A stretch of DNA of 37,245 bases from a virus (taxonomy: Duplodnaviria > Caudoviricetes), in the IMG/VR virus record IMGVR_UViG_3300004241_000114, positions 1 through 37,245 of that record; one strand, written 5' to 3'. The stretch's first letter is position 1. Each line of letters begins with the position of its first letter. The translations under genes were made by a program, and so were the position numbers. Below are positions 1,388 to 33,336 of the stretch, piece by piece. The notes beneath the pieces are model-generated. The model had not been told where the DNA came from and searched no databases. It was given only the letters and a program-made list of their open reading frames with translations.

Positions 1388-2581
1388 ATGTTTACAGGAA
1401 TAATACTAGCAAGTGGTAAGAGTGAGAGGTTTAAATCTTCAATACCTAAGCAGTTTATGAGTTTAAATGGTAAGCCTGTACTTCAATATTCAATAGATGT
1501 TATAGAGCCTTTGGTAGATGAGCTTATAATAGTTTCAGATATTCAGTATAAGGATTATAAGTGTGTTCCAGGTGGTAAAACCAGAAACGAGAGCGTTGAG
1601 AATGGTTTGAAAGCAAGTCATGGGGATTTTATAATTATTCATGATGGAGCGAGACCTTTTTTAAGACCAGAAACAGTAAAAAAACATAAAAAGATGTTAC
1701 TTGCAGGGTATCAGTATGTTGATACAAGGAGTGAGATATTAGATGGTTTTGTAGTTAATGGGGTGTGTGAGAGCAAGAAAGGTAAGTTTCTTGGTTTAAC
1801 ACCAGAGAGTTTTAGAAGAGAGATATTACAAGAGGCTTTCAACGAGACGGACAAAAGGGGTTGGCAAGACGAAACAAGTATGGTTCAAGAAGTTTTAGGT
1901 ATTTACACAAGTGCATGGGTAGAAGGACAATCTTTTAATTCAAAGATTACATTTAGAGAAGACCTAGCGTTTGCAGAAGGGCTTATGAGGTTTTGGAATA
2001 GATCAATAGAGACAAAGCCAGACCTCTCTAAGAAAACACTTGTATTTGGTGGGAGTGGAGATATAGCAAAATCTTGTATAGAAAAACTAGAGAATTGTTA
2101 TGCACCAACGAGACAAGAAATAGATCTCTCCAAGAAATGGGATATAGATCTAAAAGATTATGAGTCAATTATTTATTCAGCAGGAGAGTATAACGATGAG
2201 AAGAAGATAATGAAAGTCAATTTTGATAGTTGTGTAAGACTTATAAAACTTGCAGAGAAACAGGATTGGACTGGCAATATCGTGTTTTTATCCTCAACTG
2301 CATCTACATACGGAAGAAAAGGAATACCACTTTACAGTGCGTCTAAATCAGCACTCAACGCTTATATAGAAGCAAGACATGAAGAATTAGCAGAAAAGGG
2401 TATATATATAAACGCTATTGCACCAGCTAAAGTGTGGGGTAAATTACAACAAGCTATCAATCCAGGAGTCAAAAGAGGAGATACAATAGAACCAGATTAT
2501 GTAGCAGACTTTATTCTTAGATATACAGACACAAAAGTATCAGGACATATTATTTACTTAAGAAAAGGATTTGATGTTTGA
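1388..2581 (+). CDS. Bifunctional IspD/TarI-like cytidylyltransferase + SDR reductase (Bcs1-like CDP-ribitol synthase)
   Basis: N-term IILASG..ERF....PKQF, GG.TRNESV.NGL, IIIHDGARPF, N.KIT..EDL; C-term LVFGGSGDIA, IVFLSS, YSASK (YxxxK), INAIAP. Confidence 0.85.
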   Translation: MFTGIILASGKSERFKSSIPKQFMSLNGKPVLQYSIDVIEPLVDELIIVSDIQYKDYKCVPGGKTRNESVENGLKASHGDFIIIHDGARPFLRPETVKKHKKMLLAGYQYVDTRSEILDGFVVNGVCESKKGKFLGLTPESFRREILQEAFNETDKRGWQDETSMVQEVLGIYTSAWVEGQSFNSKITFREDLAFAEGLMRFWNRSIETKPDLSKKTLVFGGSGDIAKSCIEKLENCYAPTRQEIDLSKKWDIDLKDYESIIYSAGEYNDEKKIMKVNFDSCVRLIKLAEKQDWTGNIVFLSSTASTYGRKGIPLYSASKSALNAYIEARHEELAEKGIYINAIAPAKVWGKLQQAINPGVKRGDTIEPDYVADFILRYTDTKVSGHIIYLRKGFDV

Positions 2582-3827
2582 CGAAGCTCTTAGCCACGAT
2601 TTAAAACAACTAATCTTAGAGCTAGAACAACTAGACATTAAACCTTTTCTCTGGGCTGGTACGCTACTTGGGGCTGTCAGAGAGGGTACTTTTATCAAGC
2701 ATGATGACGATGTTGATATTGCATATATAAGCAAGTATGAAAACCCTAATGATGTTATGAAGGAAGCTGTGGATCTATATAAAGCTCTACACGAAAAGGG
2801 GCTACTTTTAGATTACTATGATATTAGCTGGAACAAAGGAGACCTAAACAATATTCAAACAGCCTTTGGACAGTGTCATATAACAATCAACAAGGAACAC
2901 CCAAGAGATTACACAGCAGACTTATTCACAATGTGGACAAGAGACGGAAAATTTTTTGATCCATGGTTTGGACATATAGGGAACTCAGAAGACTTTGTCT
3001 ATGAAAATGACTCATGTGAATTAGACGGAGTGAAGTTTCCAGGTCTTGAAAAGTCTGAAAGTATATTCCTTGTACTTTACGGAGAGAATTGGAAAACCCC
3101 TATAAAGGGTGAGAAAGGTACTAATAGAAACACCTTTAGACATGCCCTCAAGGAAGATAAGGGTGGCCTATATAAAGATAATTTTATTAAAAATAACATG
3201 TACAACAAGTGGGAAGATGTAAAAGAAGAAGATACAAACCGGTATATTGCGTGTTTGTCAGGGGAGGAAACCTTTAAGGTAAGTGGGCTTATAGATGCTG
3301 GTTTATTAACCAAAACAATTAGATCTTTTATGGAATATGGCTTTTTGGGTAAGGATATTCTTGAGTTTGGTTGTGGGAGTGGTCGTATGACACAGTATAT
3401 AAGGGAGTTTTTTGGCAACTATTTTGTAGCAGATATTTCAGATGTAATGCTTGGGTTGACAAGTAAAAAAACAAATGTAAAGTGCTTGAAAACAGATGGT
3501 TCTAAAATACCACTTAAACAGAAAAGTGTTGATATAGTTTTTACATTTACTGTGCTTATGCATAATAAAAAAGGGGATGTCCCTGCTATTATTTCTGAGT
3601 TTAAAAGAGTTCTCAGGACCGGTGGTTATTTATTTATGCAATTACCATGCTATACAGATAAGAACGAAGGGAAAAAGTTTAACGATGTTAGTATTTGGAA
3701 TAAAGAAGAAATATTAGAGCTTATGAATGGTTGGGAGGTTATAGATATTGTAGATAGTAATAGACCAATGGGTGGACAGATATCACCAGAGCATTTTCAA
3801 TACCATGTGTTTAGAGTTGTAAAATAA
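2574..3827 (+). CDS. licD: LicD-family phosphotransferase fused to class I SAM methyltransferase
   Basis: GTLLGAVR..TFI.HDDDVDI and YG.NW.TP; C-term ILEFGCGSGRM, DIVFTFTVLMH, RVLRTGG. Overlaps the upstream stop (ATG 2574 preferred to TTG 2571). Confidence 0.85.
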   Translation: MFDEALSHDLKQLILELEQLDIKPFLWAGTLLGAVREGTFIKHDDDVDIAYISKYENPNDVMKEAVDLYKALHEKGLLLDYYDISWNKGDLNNIQTAFGQCHITINKEHPRDYTADLFTMWTRDGKFFDPWFGHIGNSEDFVYENDSCELDGVKFPGLEKSESIFLVLYGENWKTPIKGEKGTNRNTFRHALKEDKGGLYKDNFIKNNMYNKWEDVKEEDTNRYIACLSGEETFKVSGLIDAGLLTKTIRSFMEYGFLGKDILEFGCGSGRMTQYIREFFGNYFVADISDVMLGLTSKKTNVKCLKTDGSKIPLKQKSVDIVFTFTVLMHNKKGDVPAIISEFKRVLRTGGYLFMQLPCYTDKNEGKKFNDVSIWNKEEILELMNGWEVIDIVDSNRPMGGQISPEHFQYHVFRVVK

Positions 3828-4994: not shown

Positions 4995-5283
4995 CACAAT
5001 CAATCTAACAGGTAGAACATTATTTGATGCAGACAATCAAGCTATTAAACAAGAGGATATTATTCTTGAAATACTCAAAGACGGAAAAGAAAGAACACCT
5101 TTTGAAGTAGAAGAACAACTCCTTGTTAGAGGATATAAATATCCAATCACAAGTATCAGAAGAGCAATGACAAATCTAACTAAAGAAGGAAAGATCATAA
5201 AAACAAACACCAAAAAAGATGGTGAATACGGCAAATTAAATTACTGTTGGAAAATACTTGACAATCTCGAGAATATATATTAA
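4978..5283 (+). CDS. Winged helix-turn-helix DNA-binding protein
   Basis: ILEIL....RTPFEV....YPITSIRRAMTNLTKEGKI pattern. Confidence 0.7.
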   Translation: MKSFYNTINLTGRTLFDADNQAIKQEDIILEILKDGKERTPFEVEEQLLVRGYKYPITSIRRAMTNLTKEGKIIKTNTKKDGEYGKLNYCWKILDNLENIY

Positions 5284-5286
5284 ACT
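5258..5286 (+). promoter_or_regulatory. Sigma70-type promoter with palindrome in spacer
   Basis: TTGACA 5258-5263, 17 bp, TAAACT 5281-5286; TCTCGAGA palindrome; 16/17 identical to 3857-3873. Confidence 0.65.
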
Positions 5287-5314: not shown

Positions 5315-5968
5315 ATGGTTTTAGGCAAAATAAAAAAATCCATCAAGTCCGTAAACCTTTTAGATGGTCAGTCAAGAGGAGAGGTTATATTTAGAAGGGT
5401 TAGTGTAGTAATCATAGGTTACTTGCTAATAGTTCTAATGGGTAATGTTCTTATTAACAAGGAGCAGGTTGTGGATCAGGTTGAAGCAAGAACTCCAGTA
5501 GTAGAGGTTAAGACAGGAGATATTTATAATGGTCAAGAGGTAGAAATAGATGAGAATGGAAAGGTCTGGTATTTACAGGATTACACACCTACACCAGAGC
5601 CAGAAGTAGAAGACAAGGTAAGTTCTTTTATTAAAAGCTATGGGGGTAGAATAGACAGTGAATATTTAGGATATCTTAGACTTTACTGTAATCAGGAAGC
5701 ACTAGAAACAGTTGTAGCTATATCAGTAGCTGAGACAAGTATGGGGAAGAATACAACTAGAAACACAAACTTTTATGGTTGGTTTAAGGGTGGAAATAGA
5801 AACTATGATCCAAGTAAGGAAGAAATGGCACAAGAGATATGTACAGGAATTGAAAGAAGTTATATAGGAATAGGATCAAACGACAAGGTTGCAAGTAAAT
5901 ATACAGGAGGAGATAGTACAAGTAACTGGATGAAAAACTATAACTGGGCTAGAAGCCAGATGAGATAA
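5315..5968 (+). CDS. Membrane-anchored lysozyme-fold (glucosaminidase-like) protein
   Basis: N-terminal TM segment, Pro/Glu linker, VAISVAETSMGK...NFYGW catalytic-like motif. Confidence 0.6.
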   Translation: MVLGKIKKSIKSVNLLDGQSRGEVIFRRVSVVIIGYLLIVLMGNVLINKEQVVDQVEARTPVVEVKTGDIYNGQEVEIDENGKVWYLQDYTPTPEPEVEDKVSSFIKSYGGRIDSEYLGYLRLYCNQEALETVVAISVAETSMGKNTTRNTNFYGWFKGGNRNYDPSKEEMAQEICTGIERSYIGIGSNDKVASKYTGGDSTSNWMKNYNWARSQMR

Positions 5969-5987
5969 TAGCTCTTTATAATTTGAA

Positions 5988-6118
5988 GTAGTGCATCATG
6001 GGTTCTGGGCAGTGCCTCTGGTGTGCTACTCCCTGTCTCTGGTTCTGAGAGGATACTGGGGATAAGGAGTAGCATTTGCTACAGCTCGTAAAAAGTGGTT
6101 TTCCCAACATTGAAAACT
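5988..6118 (+). ncRNA. Structured leader or ncRNA with overlapping alternative hairpins
   Basis: 5988-5998 pairs with 6019-6029; 6024-6074 forms a long G.U-rich hairpin with GAGA tetraloop; TATAAT at 5977-5982. Confidence 0.55.
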
Positions 6119-6131
6119 TAGGAGGTTTATC

Positions 6132-6347
6132 ATGTCATGGGATAAGAAAACTACAAAGGAAAGTGGTTCTGGTAACGACAATCTGTCAGGGTCAAATTGG
6201 ACTCGGCACATCACCACAGAAACCTACGACAATGGTTCAAAGCACACAACCGAGTCATTCACCAATGACAACGGAAGCTGGAGAACTTCGTGGGACACCG
6301 ACAAAGGTGGAAATGTGAGTGATATGCACATCAGCAAGAACGACTAG
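6132..6347 (+). CDS. Small hydrophilic hypothetical protein (moron-like)
   Basis: Canonical SD AGGAGGT at 6120-6126; visibly more GC-rich than neighbours; S/T/D/N/G-rich. Confidence 0.7.
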   Translation: MSWDKKTTKESGSGNDNLSGSNWTRHITTETYDNGSKHTTESFTNDNGSWRTSWDTDKGGNVSDMHISKND

Positions 6348-6367
6348 CTGACAAGCTACCAGACCAC

Positions 6368-6407
6368 AGGGGAGGGGGACATTGTTTTTATACAGTCTCC
6401 TTCCCCT
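6368..6407 (+). other. G-rich hairpin 3' of ORF 6132-6347
   Basis: GGGGAGGGGGAC (6369-6380) pairs with GTCTCCTTCCCC (6395-6406), two G.U; apical TTTTAT loop. Confidence 0.65.
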
Positions 6408-6419
6408 TCTGTTCGTTAT

Positions 6420-6525
6420 GCAGGGGTTTTATCAGTTTGAAGAAACTGGTCATTGCTAAAGGTGGTATGGGGAATAATTAGCTTTAGCGTTCTCCATGCA
6501 ACAGGGTGCAACTCCCTACCTTGCT
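6420..6525 (+). ncRNA. tRNA-like RNA (acceptor stem and T-arm) without a canonical anticodon arm
   Basis: GCAGGG/CCTTGC closing stem; AGGG-TGCAACT-CCCT T-arm; 8-bp hairpin 6431-6450; crossed helices 6455-6461/6482-6488 and 6465-6475/6489-6499. Confidence 0.6.
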
Positions 6526-6557
6526 TGATCCTAATATAAATTATCTAAACAAATAAA

Positions 6558-6734
6558 ATGGGAAGTATGAATATATGCCCTAACTGTAAAGGAATAAATG
6601 TAAAAGTTAAAAGAGAAGTAGGTTGCTTCTGGATAGTCTTCTTCTTTGTATCCTGTGGACTAGGACTCATAATGTATCCATTTTTACCAAGAGTCGCACA
6701 ATGTAAGGACTGTGGTAATAAATGGAAGATATAA
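6558..6734 (+). CDS. LITAF-like zinc ribbon with hydrophobic insert (58 aa, not in ORF track)
   Basis: MGSMNICPNC...GCFWIVFFFVSCGLGLIMYPFLP..AQCKDCGNKW: two CxxC motifs flanking a hydrophobic segment. Confidence 0.75.
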   Translation: MGSMNICPNCKGINVKVKREVGCFWIVFFFVSCGLGLIMYPFLPRVAQCKDCGNKWKI

Positions 6735-6924: not shown

Positions 6925-7266
6925 ATGGAGAAGAGAAGTAATTATGAAAAAGAAATAGTCAAAATTGCAGGGATTGTGGAGAAGGAAATGAAGTTGAGTG
7001 GGCTTACTTCTGGGGTTTACATAGAGTGGTTACTAAAGACTTGTAAAAGAGTTGTTGAGAACGAAATGAGTCGTGTGAGAACACAATTAAATCAAGAACT
7101 ATCCAAGGCAAGGGAAGAAGGGAAAATGGAAGTGCTAGAGGAAATGATAAAAGAAAACGGAGGAAATATTATACCAAGCCCAGAAGCCATACCGACACTA
7201 ATGTTTAGAAGAGAAATAAGAGAGTACCTTAATAACAAATTATCTAAATTAAAAGACAATAAGTAA
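6925..7266 (+). CDS. Array hypothetical protein
   Basis: MEK...ELSKAREEG...LSKLKDNK. Confidence 0.75.
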   Translation: MEKRSNYEKEIVKIAGIVEKEMKLSGLTSGVYIEWLLKTCKRVVENEMSRVRTQLNQELSKAREEGKMEVLEEMIKENGGNIIPSPEAIPTLMFRREIREYLNNKLSKLKDNK

Positions 7267-7267
7267 T

Positions 7268-7537
7268 ATGGAAAAGAAAGAAGAACAATTAGCAAGGTTA
7301 TTCCACAACACATATGAGAGATTAGCACCAGAGTTTGGATATACAACAAGGGGAGATACAAAACAGTTTGATAAGAATAGTCCTAATGGAAAGTTAATGG
7401 TAGCAGTATGTAGAGAAGTTATGATTGAAGAACTAGACAAAGCAAGGGAAGAGGGGATGCTAAGTGCAGTCAAGGAGCTTCTCTCCAAAGAGGAATATAG
7501 GGAATTAGAAAAGAAAATATCTAAATTAAAACAATAA
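7268..7537 (+). CDS. Array hypothetical protein
   Basis: MEKKE...ELDKAREEGM...ISKLKQ. Confidence 0.75.
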   Translation: MEKKEEQLARLFHNTYERLAPEFGYTTRGDTKQFDKNSPNGKLMVAVCREVMIEELDKAREEGMLSAVKELLSKEEYRELEKKISKLKQ

Positions 7538-7542
7538 GAGAT

Positions 7543-8001
7543 ATGGAGAAGAAAGAATCAGAACTTATTAGGGCTTTAAGAGAGGATTATGAGAAACTAT
7601 ATGTTAAAGAATATACTACTGGGTGGAGAGAACAGAGGTTAATAAGAAACATTGAACTAGGAATTATGTCGTTGGAAAATACAGAAAGATACATCTCAAG
7701 AGAACTAGACAAAGCAAGGGAAGAGGGGATGAGAGAAGTTTTGGAGAATGAGTTATTTATAGGTGATTATGATGTATTAAAACAAGGATTAAGGATAAGG
7801 ACTGTTGATAGGGAGAACTTTCTAGCACAAATATATAAAACAGTTAAGGAAAAATATAGCTGGGCATTTGGAACTGCTACCTATAAACAAGCACTGAAGA
7901 TGATAGAGAACAGTTTAACATCACAATTAACTCCCTATGTAGGATTGGATGCAATGGTAGATGAAGCAAGGATTGAGGAGTTATCTAAATTAAAACAATA
8001 A
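7543..8001 (+). CDS. Array hypothetical protein
   Basis: MEKKE...ELDKAREEGM...LSKLKQ. Confidence 0.75.
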   Translation: MEKKESELIRALREDYEKLYVKEYTTGWREQRLIRNIELGIMSLENTERYISRELDKAREEGMREVLENELFIGDYDVLKQGLRIRTVDRENFLAQIYKTVKEKYSWAFGTATYKQALKMIENSLTSQLTPYVGLDAMVDEARIEELSKLKQ

Positions 8002-8006
8002 GTAAT

Positions 8007-8402
8007 ATGGAGAAGATAAAAAGATGTTCAAAATGTGGCACAGTATATAACTGCGCATTTTTTGATACACACTTTTGCTTATATGATGATACAGAATTAG
8101 AATTAGTAAAAGATAGTAAAGCACAGGACACCCCAGAGGAGAAAGTATTAGACAGGGATTGTGGGCAAAAGCTTGTTGAAAGAACTCTAGAAGACGGGAC
8201 AAAGGAAATGCAATGGGTTTCGGAATCTCAAGTTAAGGACACTACAGAGGAATGGAAGGAAGGGCTTATGGAAATATGGAACAAAGCTTTGCCATTCAAT
8301 TTTGTCAAATACACAATATTAGAAAATTATGTTAAACAACTCCTAGAAGAGAAAGGAAAAGATATTTATGCCAAGATATTAGATAAACTAAACGATAAGT
8401 AG
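8007..8402 (+). CDS. Array hypothetical protein with N-terminal Cys cluster
   Basis: MEKIKRCSKCG...FC..D; internal QDTPEE/KDTTEE repeat; ends LDKLNDK. Confidence 0.7.
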   Translation: MEKIKRCSKCGTVYNCAFFDTHFCLYDDTELELVKDSKAQDTPEEKVLDRDCGQKLVERTLEDGTKEMQWVSESQVKDTTEEWKEGLMEIWNKALPFNFVKYTILENYVKQLLEEKGKDIYAKILDKLNDK

Positions 8403-9427: not shown

Positions 9428-10288
9428 ATGAACAATGTTCTCGTTGTAGGTGGTGCAGGATACATAGGAAGACATACAGTCCTATACCTTCATGAACACG
9501 GAATTAAAGTTACTGTAGTAGATAACTACTCTAACAGTTATGCAGACTTTACTATTCCAGGAGTCAGCTATGTAGAAACAGATATATCCCAAGTAGATAC
9601 TAAATACTTAAACAAGTTCTCAGGTGTTATATATCTAGCAGCAGATAAGAGCGTTCTTAATAGTGAACAACACCCTTCTAAGTACCTTGATAACCTTACA
9701 ACCTTAAGAGACTTCCTAGAAAGGTTGGATGGGAGCATACCTCTTATGTATGCATCAAGTGCAGCTGCTATTAACCCTGTTAATACTTACGGACTCGTTA
9801 AAGCTATGAGTGAAAAGATAATCAACGAACTACACCCTAAACACACAATACTCAGGTACCAAAACGTAGCAGGTGCAGATCCTAAAGGTAGAACAGGTCC
9901 AGACCCAAGAATTATTGATAGCTTCATAGACAAAACCTTCCTACAAAAAGACCTTAAACTAAGAAAAGGTTTTATCTTCCCAAGAAGAGATTATGTCCAT
10001 GTCTGGGATGTAGCTATGTGTAATATCTTTGCACTTATTAAAGCAGAAACAGCAAAGGGAAATAAAATATTCAATGTAGCTTCAGGAAAGACTACAAGCG
10101 TTAAACAAATTGCAAACCTAGTAGGTAGAAAATGTAATGTAGAACCTATCTCTAAAAGCGAAGTCCTTATATCCAGAGGTAAACCAGACAAATACTTTTA
10201 TGTTACAATGAATATGAAAGATATTATAAAAGATGTATCTAATTGGTATCGTAACTTAGGAGTTCCAACCTATGAGAAAACCAAGTAA
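9428..10288 (+). CDS. galE: NAD-dependent NDP-sugar epimerase (GalE-like)
   Basis: VLVVGGAGYIG, SSAA, YGLVK (YxxxK), LRYQNVAGADP, RDYVHV.DVA. Confidence 0.8.
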   Translation: MNNVLVVGGAGYIGRHTVLYLHEHGIKVTVVDNYSNSYADFTIPGVSYVETDISQVDTKYLNKFSGVIYLAADKSVLNSEQHPSKYLDNLTTLRDFLERLDGSIPLMYASSAAAINPVNTYGLVKAMSEKIINELHPKHTILRYQNVAGADPKGRTGPDPRIIDSFIDKTFLQKDLKLRKGFIFPRRDYVHVWDVAMCNIFALIKAETAKGNKIFNVASGKTTSVKQIANLVGRKCNVEPISKSEVLISRGKPDKYFYVTMNMKDIIKDVSNWYRNLGVPTYEKTK

Positions 10289-16708: not shown

Positions 16709-16724
16709 ATTGAGGGGAAAACCC

Positions 16725-17891
16725 ATGAAAAAGAGACCTTTAAGAGTGTTATTTCTACCTGTAGATGATGGTGGTTGTGGTTGGTATCGTGTTCGTATAT
16801 GGCACAAAATGTTCAAGAAAATGGATAATGTTGAGAGTTTAATCATAGAAACCAAAGATAAACCCTCAGAAAAACAACAACATGAAGCTATTGCTAACGC
16901 AGACGTGGTTGTTGCAAGACTTTCAGGTATTCCTTACATAAGAGTAATCAAAGAAGATATAGACCCTCATAAACCCATAGTGTTTGACCATGACGATAAT
17001 ACAATGGAGATACTTCCTTCAAGTGAGCATTATAGAGATTTTGGCACACAGGATGCTTATGCTTATATAGACGGAACAGCAAAGCCAATATGGGTAACAG
17101 GGGAGGGTGATTTTAACAGGTTTAAAAACTTATGGAATCAAATGACCCTAATATATGCCTTGGGTAGTGCAGACTTAATTACAGCCCCTGTACAGAGTCT
17201 TGTGGACTTCTATATGCAGTATGGATCTAAAGAAACAAAAGGTGCAGTCCTTCCTAATAGTTTAGATTTTAATATGTGGCCAGAAGGTAAGTTTAAATGG
17301 GATAAAAGACCAGAGAATGAAATACGTATCGGTTGGCAAGGTGGGATTTCTCACTTGGCTGATTGGAATGAAATAGGAAAGACTATGGGTAAGGTGCTTA
17401 AGGATTATCCAGAGGTTACTGTTCATATAATGGGCAGTTACTTTGACAATCAGTTTAAGAGTTTTGAGGATAGGATTACATTTTACGACTGGGTTCCTTT
17501 TGAAGGATATCCAGCAAGACTAGCAACTTTGGGTCTTGATGCTGCTATTATTCCACTTGAGGACAAAACATTTAACAGGTTTAAAAGCGAGGTTAAGTTT
17601 ACAGAGTTTAGTAAAATGGGGGTACCGGTTCTTGTTAAAGATATACCTCCGTACAATGCAGTATGTAAGAATAAATACACAGCATACACATATAAAGATA
17701 ATAAGGAGTTTGAAGTTAGATTAAGAGAGATGTTAGACGATTTAAAGGGCAGTAAAGAGATGGCAAACAAGGTAGTTAAGAACGCTCAGAAGTGGGTTAA
17801 AAAGGAGAGAAATGCAGTAGAAACAGCCAAGAAAGTAGTTGAAGCATACAAATCTATATTACCTGAAGAAGTCCAAGAAGAATTACTCTAG
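16725..17891 (+). CDS. GT-B fold (GT4-like) glycosyltransferase
   Basis: GGCGWYR, VFDHDD, LPNSLD, IGWQGG.SH..D, IIPL....FN..KSEVK..E. ATG 16725 preferred to TTG 16710. Confidence 0.85.
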   Translation: MKKRPLRVLFLPVDDGGCGWYRVRIWHKMFKKMDNVESLIIETKDKPSEKQQHEAIANADVVVARLSGIPYIRVIKEDIDPHKPIVFDHDDNTMEILPSSEHYRDFGTQDAYAYIDGTAKPIWVTGEGDFNRFKNLWNQMTLIYALGSADLITAPVQSLVDFYMQYGSKETKGAVLPNSLDFNMWPEGKFKWDKRPENEIRIGWQGGISHLADWNEIGKTMGKVLKDYPEVTVHIMGSYFDNQFKSFEDRITFYDWVPFEGYPARLATLGLDAAIIPLEDKTFNRFKSEVKFTEFSKMGVPVLVKDIPPYNAVCKNKYTAYTYKDNKEFEVRLREMLDDLKGSKEMANKVVKNAQKWVKKERNAVETAKKVVEAYKSILPEEVQEELL

Positions 17892-22398: not shown

Positions 22399-23268
22399 AT
22401 GAAAATATCTGCTGTTTTAATAGTAAAGAATGAAGAGAAAATACTTTCTCGTTGTCTTGATTCTTTAAATGGTTTTGAAGAGATTGTAGTGGTTGATACA
22501 GGATCTGAAGACAAAACAATAGAGATTGCTAGAAGATATGATGTAAAAATAGGACACTTTAAATGGGTTGATGACTTTTCCAAAGCAAGAAACTATGCAA
22601 AGCAATTAGCAACAGGAGATTGGATACTTAGTATAGACGCAGACGAGGTACTCAAGACCCCGTACAACGCTCTTAGCGACATTCTAAAACAAGAGAAAGA
22701 TAAAAAGGTATTAGGAGTGCATATGGTTGCAGAAGGTACAAATCAGGAGCATATTTTAGGAAGACTTTTCAAAAACGACAAAGATATTAAATGGGTTGGT
22801 GCTATACATGAAGTCTTAAATAAGCCAATAGAAAAAGATGCTGATGTTACTGTAGAGTATGGTTATTCCCCTGCTCATCAGTTAGACCCTGATATAGACT
22901 TTAGAATACTTAAAAAACAGGTTGTGGACAACCCTAAACTTGTAAGAGAAAGATACTATCTAGCAAGAGAATATTATTATAAAAGAGACTGGCAAGAAGC
23001 TATTGACGAAATAGATAGGTATTTAAAGGTAGCCACTTGGAGACCAGAGATAAATGACGCTTGGTTAATGAGGGCAAGGTGTTTATCAGAGCAAAAGAAG
23101 TTCGAAGAAGCATGTGATTGTGCATGGGAGGCTCTTAAATACAACGCTAACTTCAAAGAAGCGTTAGATTTTCTTTCAAAGCATATGGATCCTGTAAATG
23201 CAAATAGGTGGGCTAGTTTCAGAGATCTTGCAGACAATAGTAATGTACTTTTCAAAAGGACAGAGTAA
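22399..23268 (+). CDS. GT2 glycosyltransferase with C-terminal TPR
   Basis: IVKNEE, VVDTGSEDKT, DDFSKARN, WILSIDADE, W.G.IHE; YYLAREY TPR-like helices. Confidence 0.9.
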   Translation: MKISAVLIVKNEEKILSRCLDSLNGFEEIVVVDTGSEDKTIEIARRYDVKIGHFKWVDDFSKARNYAKQLATGDWILSIDADEVLKTPYNALSDILKQEKDKKVLGVHMVAEGTNQEHILGRLFKNDKDIKWVGAIHEVLNKPIEKDADVTVEYGYSPAHQLDPDIDFRILKKQVVDNPKLVRERYYLAREYYYKRDWQEAIDEIDRYLKVATWRPEINDAWLMRARCLSEQKKFEEACDCAWEALKYNANFKEALDFLSKHMDPVNANRWASFRDLADNSNVLFKRTE

Positions 23269-31400: not shown

Positions 31401-32036
31401 ATGAAACCCATTGTTTACACAGCTATATATGGAGGGTATGACAACCCAAAGGATCAACCTGATATAGGAGTTGATTATATATGTTATACAGACAATCCAG
31501 ACCTCAAGTCTAACACTTGGCAAGTAAGATACGAACCGATATTCCCTAAATTACACCCAAGAATGAGGGCTAAATACTGGAAGTTAGTATGCCCTTTTGA
31601 TTCTCTTTCTTTGTGGATAGACGGAAGCATAGAAATAGTTGATAGAAATATTATAGACAGACTTTCAAAGTATTTAGATAACGGATGGGCTACATACAAA
31701 CACCCTTCACCAAGAGATTGTATAAAAGAAGAGCTTGAGGCCTCACTTCCTATGGAAAAGTACAGAGATGTCCCTGTTAAAGAACAGGTTGAATATTACT
31801 TTGCACAAGGTATGCCAGAACATTTTGGATTGTGGGCTTGTGGGGTTATGTTAAGAGATGGAAGATTTGAAGATTTTGGTAATAAATGGTTTATAGAAAA
31901 CCTTGCTTGGACATACCAGGATCAAATAAGCCTTCCTTACTTAGTATGGAAAGAGAAGTTTCCTATTGACACTATTGAACTAGATCAATATTCTGGAGAG
32001 TTATTTAAAATACATGGACATAATAGAGATGACTAA
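31401..32036 (+). CDS. DUF616/TOD1-MUCI70-like glycosyltransferase
   Basis: VYTAIYGGYD, ICYTD, SLWIDG, HP..RDCI.EE, DQISLPY..W. Confidence 0.8.
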   Translation: MKPIVYTAIYGGYDNPKDQPDIGVDYICYTDNPDLKSNTWQVRYEPIFPKLHPRMRAKYWKLVCPFDSLSLWIDGSIEIVDRNIIDRLSKYLDNGWATYKHPSPRDCIKEELEASLPMEKYRDVPVKEQVEYYFAQGMPEHFGLWACGVMLRDGRFEDFGNKWFIENLAWTYQDQISLPYLVWKEKFPIDTIELDQYSGELFKIHGHNRDD

Positions 32037-33336
32037 GCAAACATGGTGGCAAGAAAATGCAGAAAATATGATGAGTAATTTTGCGTTGTGGATAGGAAAT
32101 GAAAATGCGACCTCAAGGGTTCAAATAGCACAATATATACAGGAAAATAACTTTGAGAGTGTTTTAGATGTTGCCTGTGGTCTTGGAGACGATTTTGTAT
32201 CTATTACAACAGCTTGTCCTACAATAATGTACACAGGAGTTGACAGTGCAATACCTTTTTTGGAAAAAGCAAAAGAAAAAGGTGCTGAGGTTGTATGCTC
32301 AGATATTCACCAGATGCCATTTAGTGATAGTTCGATGGATGTTGTGTATGGTAGGCACATACTTGAGCATTTACCAGATGGATTTGAAACTGTACTTGGT
32401 GAAATGATACGTATTGCAAGACTTGAAGCCCTGATTGTTTTCTTTCTAACACCAACTATACAGGAAAAACTAGGAACAGACCCCAACCTTGGGGAAGATG
32501 TTACGTTAAATACCTATTCTAGGGCTAAAATAGAAGATTTCCTTAAGAATCATAACAAAGTAGAAAGTTGGGAGTGGATTAGTGTTAACGGAAGTCCTAT
32601 AGGAGAGATAATTCTGAGAGTAAAAAAAAAAGAGAAACAACCTAAAGTAGCTATTTGTTTTGGAACTTATAATGGGGCAGAGTATCTTCCAGAACTTTTA
32701 GATAGTATAAAGGCACAAACATACAAGAATTACACTGTTTATATCTGGAATGACGGATCTACGGACAACACAAGGGAGATAATAGAAAAATATTCCAAAG
32801 ATATGCCAATAAAGTATAGAAATCACAAAGGTTCTCATGTTATAGGCACTGTTAAAAACTGGGTTATTAAGTTTGCACTCAAAGACAATCCAGATTTTAT
32901 CCAGATAATAGACCATGATGATAGGTTAGAACCTCATATGATACAGAGGATGGTTAACCGAATGGTATCAACAAAGGCAGACTTTGCGTGTTGTTTTGCT
33001 AAGATGTTTGGAGAAGCAAATAGTTTACTCACAAGTTGTAAAGCAACCAAGAAAACGATTCTTAGAGTTAACTCGTATCTTAGCTGGGGGATGTTTAAAG
33101 CTAGTGTTGTTAAGAAATATAATTACAGGGTTGGTTTAAAACATTTTGAGGACTGGGATTTATGGGTCAGACTTACCTATGCCAACAAAAAGCCTGAAAT
33201 AGTTGGAGATGTTTTATATAACTATCGTATGCACACAGGACAGTTTCATAACGAAACAAATAAATACTGGGAAAGCCATTATAAGAAGCTACTAGAGATC
33301 AACGGATTTAACTACAAAGAAATTGTTAAGGCTTAG
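32014..33336 (+). CDS. SAM methyltransferase fused to GT2 glycosyltransferase
   Basis: VLDVACGLG, PF.D.SMD.V..RHILEHL; YN...YL...LDSI.AQTY, NDGSTD, IDHDD, EDWDLW.R. Confidence 0.85.
   Translation: MDIIEMTKQTWWQENAENMMSNFALWIGNENATSRVQIAQYIQENNFESVLDVACGLGDDFVSITTACPTIMYTGVDSAIPFLEKAKEKGAEVVCSDIHQMPFSDSSMDVVYGRHILEHLPDGFETVLGEMIRIARLEALIVFFLTPTIQEKLGTDPNLGEDVTLNTYSRAKIEDFLKNHNKVESWEWISVNGSPIGEIILRVKKKEKQPKVAICFGTYNGAEYLPELLDSIKAQTYKNYTVYIWNDGSTDNTREIIEKYSKDMPIKYRNHKGSHVIGTVKNWVIKFALKDNPDFIQIIDHDDRLEPHMIQRMVNRMVSTKADFACCFAKMFGEANSLLTSCKATKKTILRVNSYLSWGMFKASVVKKYNYRVGLKHFEDWDLWVRLTYANKKPEIVGDVLYNYRMHTGQFHNETNKYWESHYKKLLEINGFNYKEIVKA

What the first reader, a model, noticed from the sequence alone, without database searches (positions are those of the whole stretch)
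6420..6525. tRNA-like RNA with pseudoknot-type pairing in place of the anticodon arm
Seen: acceptor-like stem GCAGGG (6420-6425)/CCTTGC (6519-6524) next to a T-arm AGGG-TGCAACT-CCCT (6503-6517), and an 8-bp hairpin in the D-arm position. Two crossed helices follow: 7 bp GCTAAAG/CTTTAGC and 11 bp GTATGGGGAAT/GTTCTCCATGC (3 G.U). The linkers are too short for both to form at full length, so this is a trimmed pseudoknot or a switch. There is no CCA, anticodon loop or alanine G3.U70 pair. Inference: a tRNA mimic, such as a decoy for anticodon nucleases or an RNase P/Z processing signal.
Basis: partly seen in the sequence, partly recalled or inferred. Interest (0 to 1): 0.7.

Follow-up and report, generated by a model that had tools for sequence, protein, structure and literature searches.

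The report
Self-locked serine-tRNA look-alike in phage
An uncultured phage carries a 106-base non-coding stretch with the outer frame of a tRNA but no proper codon-reading arm, whose serine-type anticodon loop is predicted to be locked by pairing to a neighbouring loop, so it is likely one more non-decoding tRNA look-alike of the kind long known, and still unexplained, from phages T4 and T5.

Summary
The helices are real and at the stated coordinates. The element is intergenic in a 37-kb phage contig, probably of a Patescibacteria host. The tRNA-like frame is well defined (pair probabilities 0.84-1.0); a T-arm with a closing stem arose in 5 of 200 shuffled genomes. The crossing 7-bp pairing is unlikely by chance (p 0.004-0.007), but no homologue was found, so there is no covariation and no expression data. 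A tRNA-Ser(GCU)-type loop (UUGCUAA) is present, only without a proper stem. A second register lets both crossed helices form at full length. It is not a canonical, intron-containing or allo-tRNA, tmRNA, Y RNA, C4 RNA or FMN riboswitch. It fits the loose class of phage tRNA look-alikes (T4 RNA C, T5 RNA1/RNA2). T4 RNA C also has two complementary loops, invariant in 5 of 5 aligned homologues. Related phages carry other look-alikes at the same genome slot (7 of 30 loci); one family shows covariation. The scan noted this class before on other genomes. Function is untested; a decoy is most likely, a decaying pseudogene the main rival.

The parts
6420..6525 (+). tRNA look-alike RNA gene (whole element, intergenic)
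6420..6425 (+). 5' strand of acceptor-like closing stem (pairs with 6519-6524; U6419.U6525 and G6426.A6518 flank it as mismatches)
6431..6450 (+). D-position hairpin, 8 bp with GAAG tetraloop; no GG for a normal elbow
6453..6459 (+). tRNA-Ser(GCU)-type anticodon-loop heptamer UUGCUAA on a weak 4-5 bp stem (6450/1-6454 with 6461-6464/5)
6455..6461 (+). 5' strand of the crossing (loop-loop) helix; pairs with 6482-6488 (7 bp) or 6478-6482 (5 bp)
6465..6499 (+). long variable-arm-like hairpin, 11 bp, with a 13-nt loop (6476-6488) holding two tandem partners of the GCU loop
6503..6517 (+). T-arm, 4 bp plus C6502.A6518 mismatch, T-loop UGCAACU (G at position 55)
6519..6524 (+). 3' strand of closing stem; followed by UUGAU, no CCA
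6360..6411 (+). strong upstream hairpin (-27.7 kcal/mol, z -5.5); folds separately and leaves the closing stem free; terminator or processing hairpin not decided
5315..5968 (+). neighbouring membrane-anchored, glucosaminidase-like gene; in relatives it marks the slot where tRNAs and tRNA look-alikes lie
6132..6347 (+). 71-aa orphan ORF upstream
6558..6734 (+). 58-aa ORF downstream; replaced by another gene in a strain that keeps the RNA

Best explanation
This is a phage non-coding element with the closing stem and T-arm of a tRNA and a long variable-arm hairpin but no proper anticodon stem; it is likely transcribed, likely cut out by host tRNA-processing enzymes as a stable RNA, its serine-type anticodon loop is predicted to be locked by pairing to the variable-arm loop so that it would not decode, and it likely serves as a tRNA-shaped decoy for host proteins that recognise the class II (serine) tRNA body. 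Shown from sequence: the helices, the intergenic position, the lack of an anticodon stem and CCA, and the complementarity of the two loops. Inferred: transcription from the promoter-like site at 5258-5286, 5' cutting by RNase P at the stacked acceptor/T helix, formation of the loop-loop helix, descent from a serine tRNA, and the decoy role. From established knowledge (PMC5389517): seryl-tRNA synthetase reads the long variable arm and discriminator base, so such a body could bind serine-tRNA partners without reading codons.
For: Well-defined fold, strand-specific. Frame rare in shuffles, 5 of 200. Loop complement p 0.004-0.007. 8 of 30 loci around the homologous neighbour gene carry a T-arm-framed RNA on the gene's strand and 0 of 30 on the other strand; 7 of the 8 include an oversized one that ARAGORN misses, of which two loci share one element. 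One such family (4 members) keeps its fold with 19 of 35 pairs changed on both sides (alignment fitted to the model). T4 RNA C and T5 RNA1/RNA2 are annotated stable RNAs of unknown function with a closing stem and T-arm. T4 RNA C has two complementary loops (p 0.017) that are invariant in 5 of 5 aligned homologues while the arms diverge in two of them. Ser(GCT) tRNAs took the top 10 places among 77 tRNAs in pairwise alignment.
Against: No homologue was found by patterns, BLAST or covariance models, so nothing about this element is supported by covariation. The frame is weaker than in relatives' look-alikes: 6 + 4 pairs with mismatches, against 7-8 + 5. The serine ancestry is weak. The Ser(GCT) set was picked with the same motif, the lead over Ser(GGA) vanishes when the loop is masked (mean z 2.43 vs 2.47), and a Ser(GCT) profile does not find the element. 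None of 8 look-alikes from related phages, nor T5 RNA1 or RNA2, showed a significant loop-loop helix. A strong hairpin just upstream could stop transcription. No test of function was possible.
Confidence: 0.45

Rival explanations
1. A decaying relic of a tRNA-Ser(GCU) or of an older look-alike. The stems are left-overs, the loop complement comes from a small duplication or chance, and there is no present function.
For: Mismatches at both ends of the acceptor and in the T-stem. At 80% threshold ARAGORN calls exactly 6420-6525 a 'possible pseudogene' tRNA-Ser(gct). No homologues. The region is variable between strains.
Against: The D-position and variable-arm helices are longer and more stable than in a normal tRNA, which decay does not produce. 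Loop complement p below 0.01 with a second tandem copy. 0 of 9 strain differences fall in the element, but this is not significant (P 0.21).
Confidence: 0.25
2. A cis-acting processing and stability element. The acceptor/T helix directs RNase P and 3' trimming to cut the phage's polycistronic transcript, and the released RNA has no job of its own.
For: Lies between genes on the transcribed strand, 33 nt before the next start codon. The frame is what the relatives' look-alikes share while their inserts differ.
Against: A strain keeps the element in front of a different downstream gene, so it is not tied to one mRNA. A processing signal does not need a serine-type loop locked to a variable arm.
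Confidence: 0.15
3. A C4/CI-like antisense RNA on a tRNA scaffold, whose loops pair with a phage or host mRNA.
For: The insert of a relative's look-alike (L177) scores against Rfam c4-2 at 35.1 bits, E 0.001, below the 41-bit cut-off.
Against: The element itself has no c4 hit and does not fit that family. Its loops have no complement in its own genome beyond chance (161-500 of 500 shuffles as good). The two loops complement each other. The host genome was not available.
Confidence: 0.06
4. A working serine tRNA: an (8/4) allo-tRNA, or an intron-containing tRNA-Ser(GCU).
For: 4-bp T-stem, long D-stem with tetraloop, long variable arm and U73 match features of allo-tRNAs (PMC5389517). A relaxed ARAGORN run proposes a 19-nt intron.
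Against: Only 2 nt lie between the D hairpin and the loop, so there is no anticodon stem. The acceptor has 6 of 8 pairs. The proposed intron removes half of the strongest helix and leaves poor stems, and the same threshold gives 55 calls in the window.
Confidence: 0.05
5. Chance folding of G+C-richer intergenic DNA.
For: Folding z-score is only -2.8; no homologue.
Against: Frame in 5 of 200 shuffled genomes before counting the two inner hairpins and the intergenic position; same slot and strand as tRNAs and look-alikes of relatives.
Confidence: 0.04

Closest known systems
Phage T4 RNA C (rnaC, species 1 RNA; NC_000866 70908-71046)
   Same: Closing stem, T-arm at the 3' end, a hairpin just before the T-arm whose loop is complementary to a loop further 5', no decoding arm. 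Described as of unknown function in PMC9697503 and PMC3014915 (passages read).
   Different: No sequence homology: 7.3 bits, E 0.23 in 3 kb, against 152 bits for T4. RNA C's invariant loop hexamers are absent. RNA C has one very long 5' arm; here there is an 8-bp hairpin and a short, nearly unstemmed loop.
Phage T5 RNA1 and RNA2 (AY543070, annotated 'tRNA-like stable RNA with unknown functions')
   Same: tRNA frame with extra arms in place of a decoding arm, 125-144 nt.
   Different: They lie in a tRNA cluster, keep a 5-bp T-stem with UUC loop, and show no significant loop-loop helix. This phage has no tRNA gene.
(8/4) allo-tRNA and (8/4) tRNA-Ser (Mukai et al., PMC5389517)
   Same: 4-bp T-stem, long D-stem with tetraloop, long variable arm, GCU loop, U at the discriminator position; the paper also reports inactive forms with five-stem junctions.
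   Different: No anticodon stem, only 6 of 8 acceptor pairs, longer arms, G55 in the T-loop, and a loop-loop lock.
Canonical tRNA-Ser(GCU)
   Same: Colinear order of arms; UUGCUAA loop followed after 5-6 nt by a variable arm that begins GUA.
   Different: No anticodon stem, no D-loop GG, no Rfam or ARAGORN hit; ancestry not significant once the loop is masked.
Bacterial Y RNA YrlA (Chen et al., PMC4201824)
   Same: Non-decoding RNA with a T-arm; found in phages.
   Different: In YrlA the acceptor-like stem-loop lies between the T and D arms and the gene lies next to Ro60; here the order is that of a normal tRNA and no Ro60 domain was found among 50 window proteins.

Membership tests
canonical tRNA (RF00005) | scores with tRNA models at normal thresholds | tested here: not met
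canonical tRNA (RF00005) | 5-bp anticodon stem closing a 7-nt loop | tested here: not met
   only a 4-5 bp stem with 3 G.U around a 6-nt loop, probability about 0.5
canonical tRNA (RF00005) | 7/5 acceptor/T branch | tested here: not met
   6 + 4 pairs with U.U and C.A mismatches
intron-containing tRNA | removal of an insert restores a good cloverleaf | tested here: not met
   no call at default threshold; the 80% call leaves poor stems and is one of 55 at that threshold
(8/4) allo-tRNA / tRNA-Ser | 8-bp acceptor with 4-bp T-stem | tested here: inconclusive
   4-bp T-stem present; 6 of 8 acceptor positions pair
(8/4) allo-tRNA / tRNA-Ser | long D-stem with tetraloop and long variable arm | tested here: met
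   8 bp + GAAG; 11-bp arm (features)
(8/4) allo-tRNA / tRNA-Ser | full anticodon stem-loop | tested here: not met
   2 nt between D hairpin and loop
(8/4) allo-tRNA / tRNA-Ser | aminoacylation and decoding | not testable with these tools
   needs assay
tRNA-Sec (RF01852) | model score and UCA anticodon | tested here: not met
T4 RNA C family | sequence/structure homology to rnaC | tested here: not met
   7.3 bits vs 152.4
phage tRNA look-alikes (T4 RNA C, T5 RNA1/2; loose class) | closing stem stacked on a 3' T-arm, non-canonical inner arms, no decoding arm, phage-encoded | tested here: met
phage tRNA look-alikes (T4 RNA C, T5 RNA1/2; loose class) | accumulates as a discrete stable RNA | not testable with these tools
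   no RNA run was available to lay
four-member look-alike family of related phages (model R2) | scores with the family model; three-way junction in the variable region | tested here: not met
   T-arm only, 5.5 bits
tmRNA | G3.U70 acceptor, tag ORF, model score | tested here: not met
Y RNA (YrlA) | adjacent Ro60 gene and permuted tRNA-like domain | tested here: not met
C4 / c4-2 antisense RNA | model score and complementary target sites in the phage | tested here: not met
FMN riboswitch (RF00050) | full aptamer around the T-loop hairpin | tested here: not met
   shares an 18-mer T-loop hairpin (15 of 20 tested metagenome hits were FMN) but has no Rfam hit

The most novel reading that the evidence does not exclude
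A serine tRNA remodelled into a self-locked decoy: it keeps the long variable arm that serine-tRNA partners read, and hides its GCU anticodon loop by pairing it to the variable-arm loop. Tip-to-tip locking would then be a recurring design of phage tRNA look-alikes, shared by convergence with T4 RNA C, used to soak up host tRNA-targeting defence enzymes or synthetases without entering translation.
Probability: 0.2. Interest if true: 0.75.

Novelty: new variant of a known kind. Interest (0 to 1): 0.42.

Why it matters
T4 RNA C and T5 RNA1/RNA2 are long-known stable RNAs with no assigned role. This element is a compact (106 nt) version in which the anticodon loop appears to be hidden on purpose, which gives a simple test: break and restore the loop-loop pairing and ask whether stability, charging, toxicity or protection changes. 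The session also shows that small phages of probable Patescibacteria hosts carry a varied set of such RNAs that annotation tools miss, and that T4 RNA C itself has a conserved pair of complementary loops that can be tested in a laboratory phage. As a single copy without homologues or expression data, this element alone proves little.

Tried and rejected
Homologue searches that found only identical copies or unrelated hits: viral pattern scans, metagenome scan with the T-arm 18-mer (76 loci; 1 identical copy, most FMN riboswitches, a few unrelated T-arm RNAs), BLAST in phages and plasmids, single-sequence model R1 over 45 loci and 40 records. R1 is a weak model and had no positive control among those 40 records. 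The element at L008 1502-1616 first looked like a homologue with the same pseudoknot; it belongs to another family whose model does not score this element, and its 7-bp complement is not kept in that family. A 10-mer shared with L177 was used as a search motif and gave no homologue. Serine ancestry by profile HMM: no hit. Antisense targets in the own genome: chance level. Terminator-like hairpin 6406-6426 flagged: outcompeted by the upstream hairpin in the fold. Sequencing runs: no RNA holder listed; runs X12 and X13 did not cover the element; a 35-nt contig join at 6526 in run X11 is too short to rely on. Host: no close isolate phage; two genome-bin hits are probably mis-binned contigs. Literature: no paper held all five terms; searches showed no description of this element or of a loop-loop pairing in T4 RNA C. 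The library lacks most older subscription papers, so that pairing may be in print. The supplement of PMC5737381, which describes c4-2, could not be read.

Full report
Setting. The window is a whole 37,245-base virus record, 95% complete. It encodes a terminase, a P22/SU10-type portal and an SU10-type capsid protein. The host is probably a Patescibacterium. This rests on thin evidence: look-alike clusters of the 5315-5968 protein are led by Doudnabacteria and Minisyncoccota, and one of 120 listed homologues is named from a Patescibacteria bin. The element lies between ORFs 6132-6347 and 6558-6734 and overlaps no ORF of 40 aa or more. The phage has no tRNA gene.

Observation. The + strand folds at z -2.79 and the - strand at z -0.54. 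The four nested helices have pair probabilities of 0.84-1.0, and stay at 0.83-1.0 when the upstream hairpin is included. A T-arm followed by a closing stem appeared in 5 of 200 block-shuffled genomes. The 7-bp crossing helix joins two segments that the nested fold leaves free; shuffling free bases reproduced it in 0.4-0.7% of trials. Without that restriction a 7-bp helix is common, 21%. The 5' strand of the crossing helix is the heptamer UUGCUAA, the anticodon-loop sequence of tRNA-Ser(GCU) in the supplement rows of PMC5389517 and in the genome matches. And the 13-nt loop holds two tandem partners, so a 5-bp register with linkers of 5, 2 and 6 nt allows the 11-bp helix to stay whole; the 7-bp register (3, 6, 0 nt) needs trimming. 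I did not compute pseudoknot energies.

What it is not. Rfam gave no meaningful hit on the window or the element; the only local match is the T-arm to a viral tRNA-like family at 12.7 bits against a cut-off of 40. tRNA and tRNA-Sec models found nothing, while ringing in 14 of 14 control genomes. ARAGORN with introns finds nothing at default. At 80% it calls 6420-6525 a possible pseudogene tRNA-Ser(gct) with a 19-nt intron, but that setting gives 55 calls in the window and the spliced form has poor stems. The T-arm 18-mer is shared with FMN riboswitches (15 of 20 tested loci) as a generic T-loop hairpin. No Ro60 domain was found among 50 proteins, and the arm order is not that of YrlA (PMC4201824, passages). 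Allo-tRNAs (PMC5389517, parts 1-3 of 5 of the text and parts of the supplement read; review PMC7609411, passages) share the 4-bp T-stem, long D-stem with tetraloop and long variable arm, but they have a full anticodon stem, which this element lacks.

Homologues. None was found. Identical copies lie in L001/L005 and L053. A strain in run X5 differs at 9 places in 5900-6556 and at none in the element (contig depth 3.8, but most differences recur in other runs); this is not significant (P 0.21). That strain, also seen in run X7 of the same study, joins the element to a different downstream gene. Other searches are listed under Tried and rejected.

Relatives. Loci around homologues of the 5315-5968 gene were collected (30 loci). 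Eight carry a T-arm-framed RNA on the gene's strand and none on the other strand. One of the eight holds only a normal tRNA. Seven hold 117-164 nt RNAs that ARAGORN misses; two of these seven share one element. The scan missed one real tRNA that ARAGORN found (L149), so it undercounts. Four of these RNAs form a family with a full cloverleaf and a branched variable region: 94% of cells pair and 19 of 35 pairs change on both sides, above all 500 shuffles and all slid controls (the alignment was fitted to the model). The element of this report is not in that family, but it lies in the same slot, 450 nt behind the gene and on the same strand. Real tRNAs of these phages also lack an encoded CCA, so its absence here says nothing. 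G at T-loop position 55 is common among the look-alikes.

Known counterparts. Earlier notes of this scan pointed to T4 RNA C and T5 RNA1. I checked both. They are annotated as stable RNAs, the T5 ones as tRNA-like and of unknown function, and fold with a closing stem and T-arm. Two papers call T4 RNA C's role unknown (PMC9697503, PMC3014915; passages). In a test of 12 RNAs for helices between free segments, only this element (p 0.007) and T4 RNA C (6 bp, p 0.017) stood out. In five aligned RNA C homologues, chosen from 748 BLAST records as T4 plus the four most distant of 40 listed, both loop hexamers are invariant although the long arm diverges in two, and one homologue extends the pairing to 12 or more pairs. 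Invariant pairs are conservation, not covariation. A model built from these five gives this element 7.3 bits: it works like RNA C in layout but is not a member. A later note (e1-5706418) describes a serine-type look-alike with tip-to-tip pairing in another phage; I could not see its sequence.

Origin. Pairwise alignment to 77 tRNAs put Ser(GCT) in the top 10 places, with colinear arms. The set was enriched for Ser(GCT) by a pattern taken from the element, the lead disappears when the loop is masked, and a profile does not detect the element. Descent from a class II serine tRNA is therefore likely but not shown. No Patescibacteria tRNAs were available for comparison.

Mechanism. Most likely (0.45) the element is transcribed with its neighbours from the promoter-like site at 5258-5286, cut out through its stacked acceptor/T helix, and accumulates as a stable RNA that cannot decode because its GCU loop has no stem and is paired to the variable-arm loop. 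It would act as a tRNA-shaped decoy for host proteins that read the class II body. Each of these steps is inference; RNase P recognition of acceptor/T helices is recalled knowledge, supported by the YrlA passages. The main rivals are a decaying relic (0.25) and a cis processing signal (0.15). I put the chance that the crossing helix forms in vivo at about one half.

Verdict. A real, well-folded phage tRNA look-alike; a new variant of a known, unexplained kind; single copy, no expression data. Interest 0.42. Searches (listings only, apart from the papers named above and PMC10690425 and PMC5737381, passages) found no description of it.

Noticed in passing
L159 3744-3874 (=L008 about 1487-1616), L164 1541-1671, L177 8263-8389, L196 3588-3721: Uncatalogued four-member family of 125-131 nt tRNA look-alikes: full cloverleaf frame, 8-nt non-anticodon loop, three-way junction with GAAA tetraloop in the variable region; strong covariation; the L177 insert scores 35.1 bits against Rfam c4-2.
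   Followed up: partly
L224 309-447 (T4 rnaC) and L264-L267: T4 RNA C has two complementary loop hexamers, invariant in 5 of 5 aligned homologues, which suggests a kissing-loop or pseudoknot.
   Followed up: partly
L150 3106-3228, L155 5381-5533, L159 4856-5017, L166 3103-3221, L142 about 1430-1540: Further ARAGORN-negative RNAs with tRNA acceptor and T arms and unrelated inserts, several with leucine-type D-loops.
   Followed up: partly
L008 2953-4134: A related 39-kb phage encodes RtcB RNA ligase among two tRNAs and two tRNA look-alikes.
   Followed up: no
window 5985-6125: Structured G+C-rich intergenic stretch behind the glucosaminidase-like gene (z -3.7); the same slot in L002 (5622-5765) holds a different structured stretch (z -3.4). 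Strain differences fall at 5999, 6000 and 6014.
   Followed up: partly
window 6360-6411: Strong hairpin (z -5.5) whose 3' strand could instead pair with the element's 5' strand; terminator or processing role open.
   Followed up: partly
window 6132-6347: 71-aa Ser/Thr/Asn-rich orphan protein with no homologue beyond its own record.
   Followed up: partly
window 1388-3827, 9428-10288, 16710-17891, 22399-23268, 31401-33336: The phage carries many sugar-handling genes: IspD-dehydrogenase fusion, nucleotidyltransferase-like/methyltransferase fusion, epimerase and several glycosyltransferases.
   Followed up: no
window 6925-8402: Run of short ORFs with similar starts (MEK...) and ends, which may act as recombination points; a strain joins position 6556 to such a start.
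   Followed up: no
L083 470-628, L057, L079, L080, L088, L117: Other non-FMN metagenome RNAs ending in the same T-arm, one inside a tRNA array.
   Followed up: no
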